From NCBI GenBank assembly GCA_963635575.1, contig CAVHFU010000031.1, positions 1 to 17,155 on the forward strand: a stretch of 17,155 bases of DNA, written 5' to 3'. The position numbers and the translations under genes are program-made. Shown here piece after piece: positions 1-14,766 of the stretch. The stretch comes from a bacterium (lineage in GTDB: Bacteria; Bacillota; Clostridia; TANB77; RGIG9151). Numbering within the stretch: position 1 is the first letter of the stretch; every line of letters starts with the position of its first letter. Under the pieces are notes generated by a model. The model saw only the letters and a program-made list of their open reading frames with translations. It made no database searches and was not told the origin of the DNA.

Positions 1-39
1 TTTGAAATCTTCATCATAACTTTTATATTGTCTTGCCAT
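1..39 (-). CDS. 5' end of a transposase-like ORF running off the left edge (probable IS3-family OrfA, HTH N-terminus)
   Basis: This ORF is too short for the ORF track. The minus strand reads GAGGTG-5nt-ATG GCA AGA CAA TAT AAA AGT TAT GAT GAA GAT TTC AAA, giving MARQYKSYDEDFK, with the ATG at 39..37. An opening of the form MAR-x-K-x-x-D/E-x-x-FK is typical of IS3-family OrfA proteins in Firmicutes, as recalled from memory. Only 13 codons are visible. Confidence 0.4.
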   Translation of the reverse strand, partial: MARQYKSYDEDFK

Positions 40-117
40 AGACACACCTCATTTCCTTAATTTGATATTATACCATATCGTTCGAAATTTCGTGTCTATG
101 TATCTATACTAACACCA
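1..117 (-). mobile_element. Putative left end of an IS3-like insertion sequence (terminal region, own promoter and start of orfA); boundary approximate
   Basis: The transposase-like ORF starts at 39. An extended -10 (TGGTATAAT, plus-strand 67..75) lies upstream of it. The ToxN-like reading frame loses its expected continuation at about 117..124, where the minus strand reads TTT ATA | TTGGTGTTAGTATAG. A TG dinucleotide at 117..116 would fit the usual IS3 5'-TG terminus. The other end and any target-site duplication lie outside the window. Confidence 0.35.
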
Positions 118-259
118 ATATAAAATAATCTAAATGTGTATCTATTAGTAAACAAGTATACGGACGTTCATACTTTAACATAAGTTCCGGATAAATATTT
201 ATAGGATAATCATTTATAAACTCAATAGATAATAAGGATATTTCCACATCATATTCCAT
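104..259 (-). pseudogene. Truncated type III TA toxin candidate (ToxN/AbiQ-like N-terminal 47-51 codons, then premature stop)
   Basis: This ORF is below the length cutoff of the ORF track. GGAGGTG (273..267) is followed by 7 nt and an ATG at 259..257. The translation is MEYDVEISLLSIEFINDYPINIYPELMLKYERPYTCLLIDTHLDYFILVLV*, with TAG at 106..104. The layout resembles ToxN/AbiQ N-termini (M-x-Y/F-x-V/I ... Y/F-I/L-x-x-Y/F ... RPY-hydrophobic strand ... Y-F/L-x-PL-S/T-S), but it ends where PLSS would be expected. Full-length toxins of this type are about 150-190 aa. Confidence 0.5.
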
Positions 260-278
260 ATTTTTACACCTCCGTTTT

Positions 279-313
279 AAAAAATCAGAGCATTCAATAT
301 TTAGAATGCTCTG
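279..313 (-). terminator. Rho-independent terminator between the repeat RNA and the toxin-like ORF
   Basis: The minus strand reads CAGAGCAUUC-UAAAUAUU-GAAUGCUCUG followed by AUUUUUU. This is a perfect 10-bp stem (313..304 pairing with 295..286), an 8-nt loop and a U6 tail. Confidence 0.85.
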
Positions 314-318
314 TTAGT

Positions 319-427
319 TTCTTCGCTCGGTCACTTTTTATTTTACCGATGTGTCAGAACCGTCACACATCTTCTTCGCTCGGTCACTTTTTATTTTACC
401 GACGAGTCGGAACCGTCACTCGTCATC
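319..427 (-). repeat. Two head-to-tail direct repeats (56 nt at 427..372 and 53 nt at 371..319)
   Basis: Unit 1 on the minus strand is GAU-GACGAGU-GACGGUUCCG-ACUCGUC-GGUAAAAUAAAAAGUGACCGAGCGAAGAA. Unit 2 is GAUGUGU-GACGGUUCUG-ACACAUC-GGUAAAAUAAAAAGUGACCGAGCGAAGAA. The 3' 31 nt are identical. The 7-bp hairpin stem differs at two base pairs, and both changes are compensated. Confidence 0.9.
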
Positions 428-451
428 TTTAGCGAATTCCCTTATAGTTAT

Positions 452-480
452 ATTATAGATAATAACTAGATACTTGTCAA
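452..480 (-). promoter_or_regulatory. Sigma-A type promoter driving the repeat RNA and toxin-like ORF
   Basis: The minus strand reads TTGACA (480..475), a 17-nt spacer (AGTATCTAGTTATTATC) and TATAAT (457..452). Both hexamers match consensus. Confidence 0.7.
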
Positions 481-500
481 CACAAATTATGTCGACAAGT
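472..500 (-). other. 11-bp inverted repeat overlapping the -35 box; possible weak hpf terminator or operator
   Basis: The minus strand reads ACUUGUCGACA-UAAUUUG-UGUUGACAAGU, with all 11 positions paired including one G-U. The 3' arm contains the TTGACA -35 element. The downstream sequence is only moderately U-rich (AUCUAGUUAUUAUCU). Confidence 0.35.
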
Positions 501-561
501 GTCAATCATCTACATATATAATATATGACAAAAGAGCTAACTTATACACTATAACTCAATC

Positions 562-3133: not shown

Positions 3134-3586
3134 TCAACTTTCAACGGTATCTCCTTTTTTTGTATAGCTAATTACAAGCATTATACATCCTACTACTATG
3201 CATATATCTGCAAAGTTAAATACGGGCCAAAACTTGAAATCAATAAAATCAACAACATACCCTCGAATTAATCTATCAATGTAATTCCCGACAGCTCCCC
3301 CTACCACTAAACTTCCGGCAAAAGTCTCAAATTTAGTAGGTCTTGACCTTATTAAAAACACAATAATTGCCAAAATAAAAATCGGTATAAGTATCTTTAG
3401 TAAAATATCATATTTATTAAAAAAACCCCATGCCGCACCATAATTTTCAACATACGTAAAAGACAAAATTTTATCTATTAGTACAATTTCATCTCGATAT
3501 AAGTTTAAAACTATAAATGCCTTGGTAATCTGATCAATTAAAATAGTGATAATACCGATTATTATACTTATCAATCCTATTCCCAT
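3134..3586 (-). CDS. lspA: Lipoprotein signal peptidase (signal peptidase II)
   Basis: The protein has the NYGAAWGF and FNFADICIV motifs (catalytic Asp regions) and four hydrophobic segments. I trimmed the start to the ATG at 3586 (MGIGLISIIIG...DQITK) after GGAGGG. The resulting 150 aa fits the usual LspA size. Confidence 0.85.
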   Translation of the reverse strand: MGIGLISIIIGIITILIDQITKAFIVLNLYRDEIVLIDKILSFTYVENYGAAWGFFNKYDILLKILIPIFILAIIVFLIRSRPTKFETFAGSLVVGGAVGNYIDRLIRGYVVDFIDFKFWPVFNFADICIVVGCIMLVISYTKKGDTVES

Positions 3587-3698
3587 TTTCCCTCCAATTT
3601 CAAAAGAGACACCATAAACAGCGGTCATATCCGCCAACACAATTGGTTTTAATTGCATTCGGTATTTCCGTTTTATTTAAGGTATCCCCTTTAACATT

Positions 3699-9531: not shown

Positions 9532-10662
9532 CTACATATTTCCTATTACATCGCCAACTTTAATAGCTATATTAAATCTATCATTCAATAAGGTACTTTC
9601 TTTAACTTTACTTTTATAAGAATTTTCAGCATTCATAACAGCCAACTCAGAACCAAGATAAGAATTTTTAGATATTAATCCAACATCAAACATAACCTTA
9701 GCTTGTTCATATTGTGTTTTTACTCTGTCTAATTCTTCTTTAGCTATTTTTACTTCACTTTCTTTGTCTTTAACTTGATTATATAAAATTCTTAAGTTTT
9801 CCTTAACAGAATTTATATCATTATTTAATCTAAATTCAGCATCACTATAATCATCCTTGGCTTTTTTCTTATCATCTCTTAGCATAAAGCTTGTTTTAGT
9901 AGCCAATATATATTGGTTCTCTTTTTGTTGGTATTGAAGTTTAACAGATAATACAGAATTATTAGTTTCAAGTGAATCCTCAATTGTTTTTTCTAAATCT
10001 TCAACTGTAAGTTCCTTTTCAACATATTCAGGTCTTTTTATAAGTAATTCTTCAGTAACATTAAATCCCATAATTTGCTTTAATGAAATTTTTAATGTCT
10101 CCAAACTCTTTTTTATACTTTCTAATTGCAAACGTGACGTTTCCAAAGTAGATTTCACACTTTCCAAGTCATTCTTTGTAATCATATTAAGGCTAAACTT
10201 AACCTCAGCAATTTGTACATCATTTTCTTGCTTTAATATAGACTTATTAAGTAATTCTATATTATCTTCAAGCTCAAATATGCTATAAATCATATTCTTT
10301 ACAGAATACTCTATTTTTTGCTTTGCTCCTTCTCTTCCTGCCAAAAAGCTATTATATTGTAATTCTGAAATTTTCATCATATAGCCCCAACATGTAAGAT
10401 ACTCATTTTCATCTTCAAAAGAATATCCTCCGCTTCTAACTTTATTCTTCCACTTTCTGTACTCATCTTTTGCATCATCGTACAACTCTTTTTGGTCTTT
10501 TACAGTTTTCTCTAAATCCACAATTGTAGAATTATGCTTTAGTGCATACTCAACTGCTTGCTCCATAGTCATATAATTATCTTGAGTAGTTGTAACTTCT
10601 TCTGCTATGCAAACTGAGCAAAGTAAACAAAAAGTTACAACAAGACTTATAATTCTCTTCAT
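9532..10662 (-). CDS. TolC-like outer membrane efflux protein (OEP) family protein, short form, with signal peptide
   Basis: The protein has a signal peptide (MKRIISLVVTFCLLCSVCIA) followed by the OEP-type opening MTMEQAVEYALKHNSTIVDLEK and long coiled-coil repeats. It is the last gene of the MacAB-type operon, and GGGAGAGG lies 5 nt before its ATG. At 376 aa it is shorter than canonical TolC/OprM. Confidence 0.65.
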   Translation of the reverse strand: MKRIISLVVTFCLLCSVCIAEEVTTTQDNYMTMEQAVEYALKHNSTIVDLEKTVKDQKELYDDAKDEYRKWKNKVRSGGYSFEDENEYLTCWGYMMKISELQYNSFLAGREGAKQKIEYSVKNMIYSIFELEDNIELLNKSILKQENDVQIAEVKFSLNMITKNDLESVKSTLETSRLQLESIKKSLETLKISLKQIMGFNVTEELLIKRPEYVEKELTVEDLEKTIEDSLETNNSVLSVKLQYQQKENQYILATKTSFMLRDDKKKAKDDYSDAEFRLNNDINSVKENLRILYNQVKDKESEVKIAKEELDRVKTQYEQAKVMFDVGLISKNSYLGSELAVMNAENSYKSKVKESTLLNDRFNIAIKVGDVIGNM

Positions 10663-10679
10663 AATAACCTCTCCCTTCT

Positions 10680-11915
10680 CTATTCATATCTAAGTGACTC
10701 GATAGGGTCTAAATCAGCAGCCTTTTTAGCTGGATACACTCCAAAGAACACACCGCATAGTACAGCAACTCCTATTGAAACTATAATTATAGATGGTGAA
10801 ATCAAATCAGTCGGACTGCAATTAGCAATAGTTGCAAGTGGAAAACTAGGAATTATTCCTATTATTATTCCAACCAATCCACTCATCGATGTAAGTAATA
10901 CAGCCTCTACTAAGAATTGAATAATAATATCCTTCTTTTGTGCTCCAATCGCCTTTCTTATACCAATTTCACGAGTCCTTTCAGTAACAGCAACAAGCAT
11001 AATATTCATAATACCAATTCCACCAACAACAAGCGAAATTGCACCAATTGCAAGAATTGCAATTTGGATAACATTGATAACACTATTTACTGTATCTTGC
11101 ATTTGCTGAGAGCTTGTAAAAGTGTATTTGTCCTCTGTATTATGCAACAACTCAAGATACCTTTTTGCTTTATCTGCTATTTCTTTTGAATCCGCATCTT
11201 TGGGAAAAACAACTTCTATCTCATCAATTGTATTTGTTTGATAAAAGTTTTGGTATGTAGTATACGGAATAATAAGCATACCCGGTACACTATCCGACAG
11301 TTCATCTGCCGTCATATCTATACCTATGTCAAAATCAATTGTGCCAACAATAGTAAGTGTCTTACTTCCATACTTTTCATCTTGTATAATAACTTTTTTT
11401 CCTATCGGGTTAAAATTTCCGAATAATCCTTTAACACACATCTCAGGAATAACAGCAACACTAGCTGAACAATCAACATCATTTTGAGTAAGTAATCTTC
11501 CGTTAGTAAGATCCATTGGCCTCGTATTAAAAACTTCAGGTAAAGCCCCCATAATAATTCCAATTTTCGACTTATCTCCATAATTTACGAATGTGCTTCC
11601 TGTTTGATTAGAACCATAATACTGAATAGCAGTTGCTTCCTCTATATTCTCTTTTAAATATTCAACATCTCTTAGCGTAAATTTATCCGACTCTTCAATG
11701 TTAGCAGTTACAGAAGGTGCAATATTAATAATATTGGCACCAAGTTTTCCAAATAATCCGTTGATATATGCTTTTCCCGCATTACCGGCCGAAAAAATCA
11801 TAATAACTGAAGAAACGCCTATGACAACACCTAACATTGTAAGGAAAGTACGCATTTTATTCGACTTAATACTATCTATTGCTTGCGAAAACACCTCCAA
11901 AAACAACCGTATCAT
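10680..11915 (-). CDS. ABC transporter permease, MacB/FtsX family
   Basis: The protein has an N-terminal TM helix (MRTFLTMLGVVIGVSSVI), a large extracytoplasmic MacB_PCD-like domain and a C-terminal FtsX module with the TERTREIGIRKAIGA motif and three TM helices. Its ATG directly abuts the adaptor gene stop codon (TAGATG). Confidence 0.9.
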   Translation of the reverse strand: MIRLFLEVFSQAIDSIKSNKMRTFLTMLGVVIGVSSVIMIFSAGNAGKAYINGLFGKLGANIINIAPSVTANIEESDKFTLRDVEYLKENIEEATAIQYYGSNQTGSTFVNYGDKSKIGIIMGALPEVFNTRPMDLTNGRLLTQNDVDCSASVAVIPEMCVKGLFGNFNPIGKKVIIQDEKYGSKTLTIVGTIDFDIGIDMTADELSDSVPGMLIIPYTTYQNFYQTNTIDEIEVVFPKDADSKEIADKAKRYLELLHNTEDKYTFTSSQQMQDTVNSVINVIQIAILAIGAISLVVGGIGIMNIMLVAVTERTREIGIRKAIGAQKKDIIIQFLVEAVLLTSMSGLVGIIIGIIPSFPLATIANCSPTDLISPSIIIVSIGVAVLCGVFFGVYPAKKAADLDPIESLRYE

Positions 11916-13130
11916 CTACCTTTCTTCTGTAACCTTTAATCCGTCTGTATATGAAGATTTTATTGTTTTAACAATTTTATCTCCTTCATTAATACCTGAT
12001 TTAACTTCTAATACTTCATCAGAATGAATTCCTGTCTCTATACTAACAGACTTTAGCATCCCATTTTCTATTTTATATACTAAAATGTTACCATCTTTAT
12101 CCTCATTAAAGCTTGAAACAGGTATTGTCATTGTATCTTCACTCTTTGCAGACACAACATCACAAGTAACGTTTAAACCGCTTTTCAACAAAGTCTCCTC
12201 ACTATCTACATCAACAATAACTTCAATCGTAGTCTGTGAACTTGTATAGCTAACTACAGTAGATGCAATAGGAGCAATACTATTTATATGCCCTTCATAA
12301 GTATAACCTTCAAAAGCATCACCTGTGATATATACTTTTTGTCCAACAGCTAAGTTTTTAACTGTAAATTCTTTAACAGCACATTTAATCTCTAAGTTAT
12401 TATTATTTACAACTTTATATATAGGAGCTGTAGCACCGGCATAAGCACCTTCTGACATCGTTATAGAACTAACAATTCCATCAGTAGGGCTATACATAGC
12501 AGTATTTAATTTAGAAATTTGTTTTTCGAATTCTTTAATATTAATACTTGCAAGTTCAATATTCTTTTTTAATGTATCAATGTCATATGTAATACCTGTT
12601 GTTGAAAGTGTAAGTCCAGCTTTAGCATTATCATAAGCAGTTTTCGCATTATCATATTCAACTTTAGAAATTGCTCCTACTTCGTATAAAGCTTCAGCTC
12701 TTTCAAACGCATCTTTAGTGGCCTGTGCGGAATTTTCAGTTGCAACTAGTGATAGCATACCATTATCATCACTAATTGTAGCTTTTTTATAATTTAGTTC
12801 CAAAATTTCTTTGTTTAACTTTAATGTTTCTAAGTTAGAATACATAGAATCCATATCAAACTCTACAATTTTTTGTCCTTTTTTAACCTCATCATTTTCA
12901 TCAACTAAAATCTTTTTTACTTTTACATTTGTTTCTATGTAAACATTATTCTCATCTTTTTCTTTAACTGTACCAGATATAGAAACCAAAGATTCTACAT
13001 CTCCTCTAGTTACAGCAACTGTCTCAACAACGGGTAAAATGCCGCCTTTACTTCCGGCAATAAAGAAGAAAACTATAACCAAAACAACAGCAACAATAAA
13101 TATGTATCTTTTTTTAAACTTAAACTTCAT
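11916..13130 (-). CDS. Efflux transporter periplasmic adaptor (HlyD/MacA/YknX-like membrane fusion protein)
   Basis: The protein has an N-terminal membrane anchor, a coiled-coil hairpin region (LETLKLNKEILELNYKKA...ALYEVGAISKVEYDNAKTAYDNAK) and beta-barrel domains (GQKVYITGDAFEGYTYEGHINSIAP). Its start codon overlaps the ATPase stop codon by 1 nt (TAATG). Confidence 0.85.
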   Translation of the reverse strand: MKFKFKKRYIFIVAVVLVIVFFFIAGSKGGILPVVETVAVTRGDVESLVSISGTVKEKDENNVYIETNVKVKKILVDENDEVKKGQKIVEFDMDSMYSNLETLKLNKEILELNYKKATISDDNGMLSLVATENSAQATKDAFERAEALYEVGAISKVEYDNAKTAYDNAKAGLTLSTTGITYDIDTLKKNIELASINIKEFEKQISKLNTAMYSPTDGIVSSITMSEGAYAGATAPIYKVVNNNNLEIKCAVKEFTVKNLAVGQKVYITGDAFEGYTYEGHINSIAPIASTVVSYTSSQTTIEVIVDVDSEETLLKSGLNVTCDVVSAKSEDTMTIPVSSFNEDKDGNILVYKIENGMLKSVSIETGIHSDEVLEVKSGINEGDKIVKTIKSSYTDGLKVTEER

Positions 13131-14586: not shown

Positions 14587-14766
14587 CTAATTTATTGCCG
14601 AAACCAATAAGATAGTTGCCCCAATATATAATGCCATTAAAACGGCTACAATTGAAAGAATAACTATATTAACTATCTTTAAAGACTTACATTTACCTTT
14701 AATGCTCACAAACACTATTCCGAATATAGCTAAAGCTAAAAATAATATTGCCATCCATAGTTCCAT
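14587..14766 (-). CDS. Small membrane protein (two predicted TM helices), unknown function
   Basis: The 59-aa protein is MELWMAILFLALAIFGIVFVSIKGKCKSLKIVNIVILSIVAVLMALYIGATILLVSAIN. The ATG at 14766 lies 8 nt after GGAGAG, whereas the ORF-track start is an upstream GTG without an RBS. It is the last gene before the terminator. Confidence 0.55.
   Translation of the reverse strand: MELWMAILFLALAIFGIVFVSIKGKCKSLKIVNIVILSIVAVLMALYIGATILLVSAIN

What the first reader, a model, noticed from the sequence alone, without database searches (positions are those of the whole stretch)
319..427. Compensatory base-pair changes between the two repeat copies support a functional RNA fold with an exposed A-tract
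The two units are identical over their 3' 31 nt (GGUAAAAUAAAAAGUGACCGAGCGAAGAA). They differ in the 5' hairpin stem: GACGAGU/ACUCGUC in unit 1 versus GAUGUGU/ACACAUC in unit 2. Two stem pairs change as C-G to U-A and A-U to U-A, so the 7-bp helix is preserved. The 10-nt loop GACGGUUC(C/U)G changes at one position. That pattern indicates selection on RNA structure rather than on DNA or protein sequence. The conserved ACCGA segment can pair with either of two CGGU motifs. Pairing with the hairpin loop gives a pseudoknot; pairing with the 3' flank gives a second hairpin that displays AAAAUAAAAAG. ToxI-type antitoxins are pseudoknotted, and ToxN-family enzymes cut within A-rich sites (AAAU or AAAAA, from memory). 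The single-stranded AAAAUAAAAAG tract is therefore a plausible processing site that would release unit-length antitoxin RNAs.
Basis: seen in the sequence. Interest (0 to 1): 0.75.

Follow-up and report, generated by a model that had tools for sequence, protein, structure and literature searches.

The report
TenpI antitoxin pseudoknot repeats, toxin truncated
The two 53-base repeats encode the RNA antitoxin (TenpI) of a known phage-defence toxin-antitoxin family; each folds into a pseudoknot, as compensatory changes in more than 70 related loci show, but the toxin gene here is broken and the A-rich tract is most likely an internal loop of the pseudoknot, not a cutting site.

Summary
On the minus strand, 427..319 holds two 53-nt units that differ at five positions. 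Four of these are two compensated pairs in a 7-bp hairpin.

The locus is a TenpIN type III toxin-antitoxin locus: consensus promoter, two repeats, terminator, RBS, then tenpN. The tenpN gene stops after about 48 of about 160 codons.

In 112 distinct homologous units from genomes and viral contigs, six of seven hairpin pairs covary. The hairpin loop CGGUU also covaries with the GACCG that lies downstream across the A-tract, at three of five pairs and always within the same unit.

Pairing in the register that A-tract cleavage would require is no better than shuffles. AAAAUAAAAAG is therefore the long loop of an H-type pseudoknot. It resembles the A-minor-twist loop with a kink U in the solved CptI antitoxin, so it is probably not the processing site.

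This is a new member of a known kind.

By-products:
- A covarying leader-tail helix closes the array.
- Many phage contigs carry toxin-less units, some inside tRNA arrays.

The parts
452..480 (-). Sigma-70 promoter of the antitoxin-toxin operon: TTGACA (480..475), 17-nt spacer, TATAAT (457..452)
   Evidence: 12 of 12 consensus matches. Homologous loci have a promoter at the same place.
431..436 (-). Leader strand of helix P0 (UUCGCU). It pairs with AGCGAA at 327..322 and closes the two-unit array.
   Evidence: The pairing appears in both the MFE and the centroid fold. Leader and tail are complementary and covary across 70 loci: cognate duplex -10.75 kcal/mol against -8.14 when tails are permuted (0 of 2000 permutations reach it).
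372..424 (-). TenpI repeat unit 1. S1 is 424..418 with 407..401. The loop is 417..408, with the S2 5' strand CGGUU at 415..411. The A-rich loop GGUAAAAUAAAAAGU is 400..386. The S2 3' strand GACCG is 385..381. The linker AGCGAAGAA is 380..372.
   Evidence: covariation counts.
319..371 (-). TenpI repeat unit 2. S1 is 371..365 with 354..348. The loop is 364..355, with the S2 5' strand CGGUU at 362..358. The A-rich loop is 347..333. The S2 3' strand GACCG is 332..328. The tail AGCGAAGAA is 327..319, and 327..322 is the P0 3' strand.
   Evidence: covariation counts.
286..313 (-). Intrinsic terminator between the antitoxin array and the toxin gene: 10-bp stem, 8-nt loop, U-run.
   Evidence: The same element sits at this place in related loci. 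Blower 2012 uses it as a criterion for type III loci.
104..273 (-). RBS GGAGGUG (273..267) and a truncated tenpN gene. The ATG is at 259. Homology to TenpN covers residues 1-49 (259..113), and an out-of-family tail ends at a stop at 106..104.
   Evidence: phmmer finds 67 homologues that all align by their N-termini. NF047358.1 matches at E=8.4e-07, residues 10-47 to profile positions 1-37 of 141. The alignment ends at DYFI, where relatives continue CVPFR. No other tenpN piece is in the window.
1..112 (-). Unrelated DNA that replaces the rest of tenpN. A new ORF starts at 39 (MARQYKSYDEDFK...) and runs off the window. It may be an insertion sequence.
   Evidence: Sequence. The source contig is only 17192 nt, so the window nearly reaches its end. 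The IS identity was not confirmed: no matches in plasmids or metagenomes.

Best explanation
Region 427..319 (minus strand) is the TenpI RNA antitoxin array of a TenpIN-family type III toxin-antitoxin locus. The operon runs from a consensus promoter through a leader, two 53-nt repeats and a terminator to tenpN.

Each repeat is a self-contained H-type pseudoknot:
- Stem 1 is the 7-bp hairpin.
- Stem 2 pairs the hairpin-loop bases CGGUU with the GACCG that lies 15 nt downstream of the hairpin in the same unit.
- The tract GGUAAAAUAAAAAGU is the long loop between them and must run along the minor groove of stem 1.

By analogy with the solved CptI antitoxin, I infer that the adenines dock into stem 1 as an A-minor twist with the central U as the kink. 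On this reading the tract is buried rather than exposed.

A further helix, between the leader (UUCGCU) and the tail of the last unit (AGCGAA), closes the array.

By family membership (not tested here), the pseudoknots bind and neutralise the TenpN endoribonuclease. Any processing by TenpN would most likely occur in the purine-rich single-stranded linker and tails (AGCGAAGAA / GAU) that flank each pseudoknot, as in ToxI and CptI.

In this genome the toxin gene is cut off after about 48 codons. The array is therefore an orphan, either recently bereaved or kept for its own sake.
For: Locus anatomy: promoter and terminator, repeats, and a TenpN N-terminus.

Fit to published family figures: repeats of 39-57 nt in 1.9-3.0 copies, with a terminator before the toxin.

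Stem 1: 6 of 7 pairs have double changes and there are ten stem versions, all complementary. All 163 genome-encoded or TenpN-linked units found without using stem 1 as a criterion have 7 of 7 pairs.

Stem 2: C-G to U-A, G-C to U-A and U-A to C-G double changes, plus U.G to U-A or C-G. Pairing is 99.8%. Compensation is always within the unit when the two units of a locus differ, as in L003, L076, L080, L078, L092, L093 and L088.

Helix P0: with new complementary sequences in phage copies.

CptI precedent: an H-type pseudoknot with an A-rich loop A27-G35 and kink U30 is required for antitoxicity, and cleavage is after A45 in the 3' tail outside the knot.

Nadig et al. 2025 independently propose stem 1, an A stretch and stem 2 for tenpI and suggest A-minor contacts.
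Against: - No experiment on this RNA or any close relative is available. The TenpI processing site is unreported in the literature I could read.
- ToxN-family enzymes do cut at A-rich sites, and the A-tract is the only long A-run in the unit.
- For P. luminescens TenpI, one cloned repeat was not antitoxic while the full array was. That could mean the active unit spans a repeat boundary, although the phase of that clone relative to the pseudoknot is unknown.
- The sequences are related, so independent stem 2 double changes number only about 3-4 events.
- One toxin-linked locus (L083) has a unit that is degenerate in both helices.
- The A-minor docking is inferred by analogy only.
Confidence: 0.8

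Rival explanations
1. Each unit forms the hairpin plus a second small hairpin (flank CGGU with ACCG) that displays AAAAUAAAAAG as a single strand. TenpN cuts there once per repeat and releases unit-length antitoxins that run from A-tract to A-tract.
For: RNAfold puts a 3-bp GGU/ACC helix in the MFE of single units. ToxN-family nucleases act at A-rich sites (my own knowledge; CptN cleaves after an adenine). The A-tract is almost invariant. The P. luminescens single repeat was inactive.
Against: The second hairpin has no double change and 20 unpaired cells, for example 14 units with GAU in place of GGU and no compensation. RNAalifold does not predict it. The register implied by A-tract cleavage is no better than shuffles (472 of 500 reach it), and every variant breaks it except L069, where both units carry the same change. 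Single-unit loci with an intact toxin (L017, L018, L086, L094) and single-unit phage copies exist. In CptI the equivalent A-rich loop with a kink U is buried and essential.
Confidence: 0.12
2. The array is a non-functional remnant in this genome. After loss of tenpN it is decaying DNA that still looks intact only because the disruption is recent.
For: The toxin gene is truncated at about codon 48, and no other tenpN fragment is in the window. Another array with a decayed toxin ORF of 25 aa is seen in L121.
Against: Both units match the family consensus at every conserved position. The promoter is 12 of 12 and the terminator is intact. Toxin-less units are maintained in many phage lineages, so a toxin-less array can have a use. 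This rival concerns present function only, not what the element is.
Confidence: 0.35
3. The pseudoknots are a cis-regulatory leader, such as a riboswitch or attenuator of the H-type pseudoknot kind like SAM-II or preQ1-II. They would control the downstream gene and would not be a trans-acting antitoxin.
For: The fold is an H-type pseudoknot with an A-rich loop, followed by a terminator and a gene. CptI's A-minor twist resembles that of SAM-II.
Against: No Rfam family matches. In genomes the element is tandemly duplicated and linked to TenpN, which is the defining type III arrangement shown to be a toxin-antitoxin pair for TenpIN of P. luminescens. It also occurs with no downstream gene inside phage tRNA arrays.
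Confidence: 0.03

Closest known systems
TenpIN type III toxin-antitoxin family (TenpI RNA / TenpN toxin; Photorhabdus luminescens prototype, Blower et al. 2012, PMC3401426; survey by Nadig et al. 2025, PMC12283969)
   Same: The toxin fragment and its full-length relatives match NF047358.1. The layout is promoter, about 2 repeats of about 53 nt, terminator, toxin. The units are non-identical, with stem 1, an A stretch and stem 2 able to form an H-type pseudoknot.
   Different: The toxin gene here is truncated. This Clostridia/Negativicutes-type repeat (loop GACGGUUCYG) was not checked against the published catalogue, because no supplementary files are held for that paper. The pairing register fixed by covariation, the leader-tail helix P0 and the toxin-less phage copies are not mentioned in the parts of those papers that I read.
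CptI antitoxin of CptIN (Eubacterium rectale; crystal structure 4RMO, Rao et al. 2015, PMC4627078)
   Same: An H-type pseudoknot whose long A-rich loop carries one central U. In CptI this loop forms an extended A-minor twist on stem 1 and is required for antitoxicity. About two repeats per locus; Firmicutes host.
   Different: The toxin family differs: a full-length relative (P0012) has no sequence match to any solved structure, CptN included. CptI has 45-nt units. The A-minor docking in TenpI is inferred, not shown.
ToxI antitoxin of ToxIN (Pectobacterium atrosepticum)
   Same: Tandem-repeat RNA antitoxin upstream of a terminator and an endoribonuclease toxin, with pseudoknotted units.
   Different: ToxI has 36-nt units in 5.5 copies cut at AA^AU in single-stranded tails. 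There is no Pfam ToxN hit for the toxin relatives and no Rfam hit. The A-tract here lies inside the pseudoknot.
Pseudo-ToxI of phage PhiTE (Blower et al. 2012 PLoS Genet, PMC3475682)
   Same: A phage-borne, toxin-less copy of a type III antitoxin repeat that can neutralise the host toxin. This is the obvious model for the toxin-less TenpI-like units seen on viral contigs, and for an orphan array.
   Different: It belongs to a different family (ToxI). The copies seen here are natural and widespread, and some sit inside phage tRNA arrays. Their activity is untested.

Membership tests
TenpIN type III TA | Toxin belongs to the TenpN protein family (NCBIfam NF047358.1) | tested here: met
   The window fragment matches at E=8.4e-07 and 29 bits, covering profile positions 1-37 of 141. 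This is below the whole-protein cut-off of 90 only because two thirds of the gene are missing. Full-length relatives that align to it at 47-67% identity score 152-170 bits.
TenpIN type III TA | Complete toxin ORF (about 160 aa) | tested here: not met
   The ORF is 51 aa. Homology ends at residue 47-49 (DYFI...), and no further tenpN piece is in the window.
TenpIN type III TA | Tandem repeats upstream of the toxin, 39-57 nt, 1.9-3.0 copies | tested here: met
   53 nt in 1.9-2.0 copies; family figures from Blower 2012.
TenpIN type III TA | Rho-independent terminator between repeats and toxin, and a promoter upstream of the repeats | tested here: met
   Terminator at 313..286 and a 12-of-12 promoter at 480..452.
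TenpIN type III TA | Repeat unit can form a pseudoknot with a conserved A stretch | tested here: met
   Covariation supports stem 1 and stem 2. The A-tract is invariant or nearly invariant at A30-A33 and A35-A38 of alignment A3.
TenpIN type III TA | RNA neutralises the toxin and is processed by it | not testable with these tools
   This needs kill/rescue assays and RNA end-mapping. There are no data for TenpI processing in the literature I read.
ToxIN (ToxI/ToxN, AbiQ) | Toxin in Pfam ToxN_toxin or similar to solved ToxN/AbiQ; ToxI-like RNA | tested here: not met
   No Pfam family reaches its cut-off for five full-length relatives. There is no PDB sequence match and no Rfam match to the repeats.
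CptIN | Toxin similar to CptN (4RMO) | tested here: not met
   phmmer of P0012 against all PDB chains finds no CptN. The resemblance is limited to the RNA architecture.

The most novel reading that the evidence does not exclude
The roughly 50-nt TenpI pseudoknot is a self-contained, portable inhibitor of TenpN that is used without a toxin. Many gut and rumen phages carry single toxin-less units as anti-defence decoys. In two phage lineages the unit sits between tRNA-Phe and tRNA-Lys inside a 17-19-gene tRNA array, where tRNA processing enzymes would release it. The orphan array in this window, which keeps a perfect promoter after losing its toxin gene, could serve the same protective purpose against incoming TenpN.
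Probability: 0.4. Interest if true: 0.7.

Novelty: new member of a known kind. Interest (0 to 1): 0.35.

Why it matters
For this window the result is mainly a correct annotation. An unannotated intergenic repeat turns out to be the antitoxin of a phage-defence system whose toxin gene has been broken.

For the family, the comparative data do something the literature had left open. Blower 2012 could not align TenpI or say how the active RNA is phased relative to the DNA repeat. Covariation now fixes the pseudoknot register as hairpin loop with the downstream GACCG of the same unit. It places the conserved A-tract inside the knot, and it reveals a leader-tail helix that closes the array. These points give precise constructs for testing TenpIN, the least studied type III family.

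The toxin-less copies in phages would be a natural RNA counter-defence if they are active.

Tried and rejected
- Pfam, PADLOC and PDB searches with the 51-aa ORF found nothing.
- The word-indexed protein search found only the ORF itself. The exhaustive phmmer search was needed to find relatives.
- Rfam has no family for the repeats at E up to 10, and nothing reaches gathering score in the whole window.
- Single-sequence folding is uninformative: z-scores are -0.4 to -1.1 for single units, and the MFE even favours the helix that covariation rejects.
- The first attempt to seed a locus search with a 13-sequence alignment failed for lack of a conserved stretch. A tighter alignment worked.
- I could not recover the source contig, an intact allele of this tenpN, or other copies of the DNA that replaces it. 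The insertion-sequence reading of 1..112 therefore rests only on the ORF start MARQYKSYDEDFK, recalled from memory as transposase-like, and on the contig ending there.
- MAFFT did not put the leader strand of P0 into common columns. I therefore tested P0 by duplex energies with permuted tails instead of by pair counts.
- I considered that the stem differences between the two units reflect recent compensated drift in this genome. I rejected this because the same unit-1/unit-2 stem pair is shared by 35 other loci.
- No supplementary files are held for the 2025 survey, so I could not check whether this repeat type is in its catalogue.

Full report
**What is at the coordinates.**
Tandem Repeats Finder reports a 53-nt period, 1.9 copies and 93% matches at 319-419. 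On the minus strand the two units are:
- Unit 1, 424..372: GACGAGU-GACGGUUCCG-ACUCGUC-GGUAAAAUAAAAAGUGACCGAGCGAAGAA.
- Unit 2, 371..319: GAUGUGU-GACGGUUCUG-ACACAUC followed by the same 3' part.

They differ at five positions. Four of these form two compensated pairs in the 7-bp stem (C-G to U-A and A-U to U-A), and one is in the loop. The only slip is that the quoted 31-nt identical string is 29 nt; identity reaches 31 nt when the last two stem bases are counted.

**Surroundings.**
All features are on the minus strand:
- A perfect sigma-70 promoter, TTGACA-17-TATAAT, lies at 480..452.
- An intrinsic terminator lies at 313..286.
- GGAGGUG and an ATG at 259 open an ORF of only 51 codons.
- Upstream are ordinary chromosomal genes: hpf, an RNHCP-domain gene, an HD-domain response regulator, lspA, a gyrB/parE-type gene, a solute-binding protein, mgtE and a MacB/HlyD/OEP efflux set.
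- The window is 32% G+C.

**Which family.**
Pfam, PADLOC and PDB searches with the 51-aa ORF gave nothing. The word-indexed protein search found only the ORF itself, on a 17192-nt NCBI contig.

The exhaustive phmmer search found 67 relatives at E up to 0.001. Nearly all align residues 1-49 of the query to their own N-termini. Full-length relatives of about 160 aa score 152-170 bits against NCBIfam NF047358.1, 'type III toxin-antitoxin system TenpIN family toxin', whose cut-off is 90. The window fragment itself matches profile positions 1-37 of 141 at E=8.4e-07.

These relatives have no Pfam hit and no sequence match to any solved structure. Rfam has no match to the repeats.

In the alignment the window protein follows the family up to ...DYFI, where relatives continue CVPFR. 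No other tenpN piece is in the window. After about position 113 the DNA is unrelated. A new ORF (MARQYKSYDEDFK...) starts at 39 and runs off the window, close to the contig end. An insertion sequence is a reasonable guess, but I could not confirm it.

The locus matches the published TenpIN figures: repeats of 39-57 nt, 1.9-3.0 copies, a terminator before the toxin, and toxins of about 164 aa.

**Comparative material.**
A distant blastn hit in a phage record and a pattern scan of viral contigs gave the first relatives. A toxin-based scan of one genome per species then gave 80 loci, mostly Lachnospiraceae, Oscillospiraceae, Acidaminococcaceae, Anaerovibrio and other gut or rumen MAGs.

Nearly all of these loci show the same layout upstream of tenpN: promoter, often a 5' hairpin, a leader, one or two units, and a terminator.

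A unit finder that does not use the hairpin stem found 170 units. Seventy-six loci have two units spaced 51-53 nt apart, and fifteen have one. I aligned 112 distinct units (A3) and 74 distinct two-unit arrays (A4).

**The hairpin (stem 1).**
- Six of seven pairs show changes on both sides, and 99.7% of cells are paired.
- All slid controls fall to 16-41% paired.
- RNAalifold predicts the same helix on its own.
- Ten stem versions occur, all complementary.
- All 163 genome-encoded or TenpN-linked units found without reference to the stem have 7 of 7 pairs.

The particular pair of stems in this window (GACGAGU in unit 1, GAUGUGU in unit 2) is shared by 35 of 71 two-unit loci elsewhere. It is old, not a recent compensated change.

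**Pseudoknot or second hairpin.**
Pairing of the loop CGGUU with the downstream GACCG (A3 columns 12-16 with 43-47) is kept in 99.8% of cells. The changes are:
- Double changes at three pairs: C-G to U-A in L088 unit 1; G-C to U-A in L078, L092 and L093 unit 1; and U-A to C-G in L003, L076 and L080 unit 2 and in both units of L069.
- One-sided U.G to U-A or C-G at a fourth pair.

Fourteen units have GAU in place of GGU without compensation.

Where the two units of a locus differ, compensation is always inside the unit. On A4 the within-unit helices are 100% and 98.9% paired. Pairing of the GACCG of unit 1 with the loop of unit 2 is no better than shuffles (472 of 500 reach it). Every variant breaks it except L069, where both units carry the same change.

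That second register is the one a unit-length RNA would have if it were cut out at the A-tracts.

Caveat: the sequences are related, so the stem 2 double changes represent about three or four independent events. One toxin-linked locus (L083) has a unit that is degenerate in both helices.

**What the A-tract is.**
With stem 1 and stem 2 as above, GGUAAAAUAAAAAGU (14-16 nt) is the loop that joins the 3' end of stem 1 to the 3' strand of stem 2. In an H-type pseudoknot this loop runs along the minor groove of stem 1.

The crystal structure of CptI (4RMO) shows exactly such a loop: A-rich, A27-G35, with a single U30. It forms an extended A-minor twist on stem 1 with the U as a kink. A29U or deletion of U30 abolishes antitoxicity, and CptN cleaves after A45 in the 3' tail outside the knot.

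The TenpI tract has the same composition. Its A positions are nearly invariant around one central pyrimidine. Nadig et al. 2025 also proposed A-minor contacts for tenpI A stretches.

I therefore read the tract as a buried structural loop. This step is inference by analogy. Conservation alone would also fit a cleavage site.

**Further arguments against A-tract cleavage.**
- Complete loci with a single unit and an intact toxin exist: L017, L018, L086 and L094.
- Phage copies consist of one hairpin-to-GACCG unit.

The processing site of TenpI is not reported in the papers I could read. The single P. luminescens repeat that failed to neutralise TenpN is a caveat whose phase relative to the knot is unknown. 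The purine-rich linker and tails (AGYGAWG...GAU) are the likely single-stranded handles.

**A helix that closes the array.**
In the window the leader UUCGCU (436..431) pairs with AGCGAA (327..322) directly after stem 2 of unit 2. RNAfold places this helix in both the MFE and the centroid.

Across loci the leader and the tail of the last unit are complementary with different sequences. Examples are CUUCGCU/AGCGAAG, CUUCAUC/GAUGAAG, UCUUCACC/GGUGAAGA and 11-12-bp helices in L003, L005, L069, L076, L079 and L080.

Mean duplex energies are:
- -10.75 kcal/mol for cognate leader-tail pairs;
- -8.14 (sd 0.25; 0 of 2000 permutations as low) when tails are permuted among loci;
- -5.07 with shuffled tails.

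Relatedness inflates this test, but the phage copies add fresh complementary pairs: CUGUCC/GGACAG, CUACCC/GGGUAG and GAUAACUUC/GAAGUUAUC.

**Toxin-less copies in phages (side finding).**
Of 40 IMG/VR contigs with a unit, only four have TenpN in the sequence fetched around the unit. GenBank phage record MT835481.1 (74.7 kb) has a unit but no TenpN anywhere.

Two groups of contigs carry the unit inside arrays of 17-19 tRNA genes, about 30 nt after tRNA-Phe and about 120 nt before tRNA-Lys. It is on the same strand, with no promoter or terminator between. Another group, contigs of about 200 kb, has it upstream of tRNA-Tyr.

The precedent is the pseudo-ToxI of phage PhiTE. I found no report of TenpI-like decoys in the held literature. 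Activity is untested.

**Verdict.**
The element is the antitoxin of a known family (TenpIN). Its pseudoknot character has already been proposed in general terms, and the toxin here is broken.

The exposed A-tract and processing-site reading is the least supported part of the finding. The case is a new member of a known kind and of modest interest in itself. It yields three useful leads: the register of the knot, helix P0, and the phage decoys.

Noticed in passing
L001 2460-2560 (= MT835481.1 about 14612-14758); also L002, L004, L006, L007, L010, L012-L014, L123: Gut phage contigs of about 63-80 kb carry one toxin-less TenpI-like pseudoknot unit in an intergenic gap. The complete GenBank record has no TenpN by tblastn. 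The hairpin in some copies has one or two mismatches (5-6 of 7 pairs).
   Followed up: partly
L099 3426-3488 (tRNA-Phe 3330-3406, tRNA-Lys 3611-3686); same arrangement in L095, L100, L102, L106, L116 and in L098, L101, L111-L113, L117, L119, L120: A toxin-less TenpI-like unit sits inside phage tRNA arrays (17-19 tRNAs; one of the two lineages also has a tmRNA). It is on the same strand, with no promoter or terminator nearby. Its flanks form a new complementary pair (CUGUCC/GGACAG or CUACCC/GGGUAG). It may be an antitoxin decoy released by tRNA processing.
   Followed up: partly
L096, L103, L109, L118 (contigs of about 200 kb): Jumbo-phage-sized contigs carry a single unit 130-190 nt upstream of the nearest tRNA gene (tRNA-Tyr or, in L118, tRNA-Leu), with 6 of 7 stem pairs.
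   Followed up: no
window 431-436 with 322-327; related loci: A leader-tail helix (P0) encloses the whole antitoxin array and covaries between loci. It was not mentioned in the parts of the TenpIN papers that I read. Its role (stability, assembly, or control of processing) is unknown.
   Followed up: yes
L015-L094, upstream of the units: Most relatives have a variable-sequence stem-loop at the very 5' end of the leader, just after the -10 box. The window's leader is shorter and lacks it; it has only the palindrome AGCGAATTC/GAATTCCCT at 431-442.
   Followed up: no
window 469-503: A 17-nt inverted repeat (82% complementary, 1 nt between the arms) overlaps the -35 hexamer of the antitoxin promoter. 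It looks like an operator but is not obviously conserved in related loci.
   Followed up: no
window 1-112 (minus strand): The DNA that replaces the 3' two thirds of tenpN starts a new ORF at 39 (MARQYKSYDEDFK...) that runs off the window near the contig end. It may be an insertion sequence, but no match was found in plasmids or metagenomes.
   Followed up: partly
L121 7567-7800 (minus strand of locus): An 85-kb viral contig has two intact units and a terminator, followed by a 25-aa remnant that starts like TenpN (MEYVAEIYLL...). This is a second case of antitoxin array retention after toxin decay.
   Followed up: partly
L008 4388-4502: A 99-kb viral contig has a promoter and two units closed by an 8-bp leader-tail helix. 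There is no terminator, and the downstream 67-aa ORF is not TenpN and has no PHROG match.
   Followed up: partly
L083 about 1880-1950; L028 and L087: One TenpN locus (L083) has a unit that is degenerate in both helices. Two loci (L028, which is near a contig end, and L087, Spirochaetales) show no unit of this type upstream of the toxin.
   Followed up: no
window 9532-13130: An OEP/MacB/HlyD efflux set in a 32% G+C genome suggests a diderm low-GC host, such as Negativicutes or Fusobacteria. The organism was not identified.
   Followed up: no
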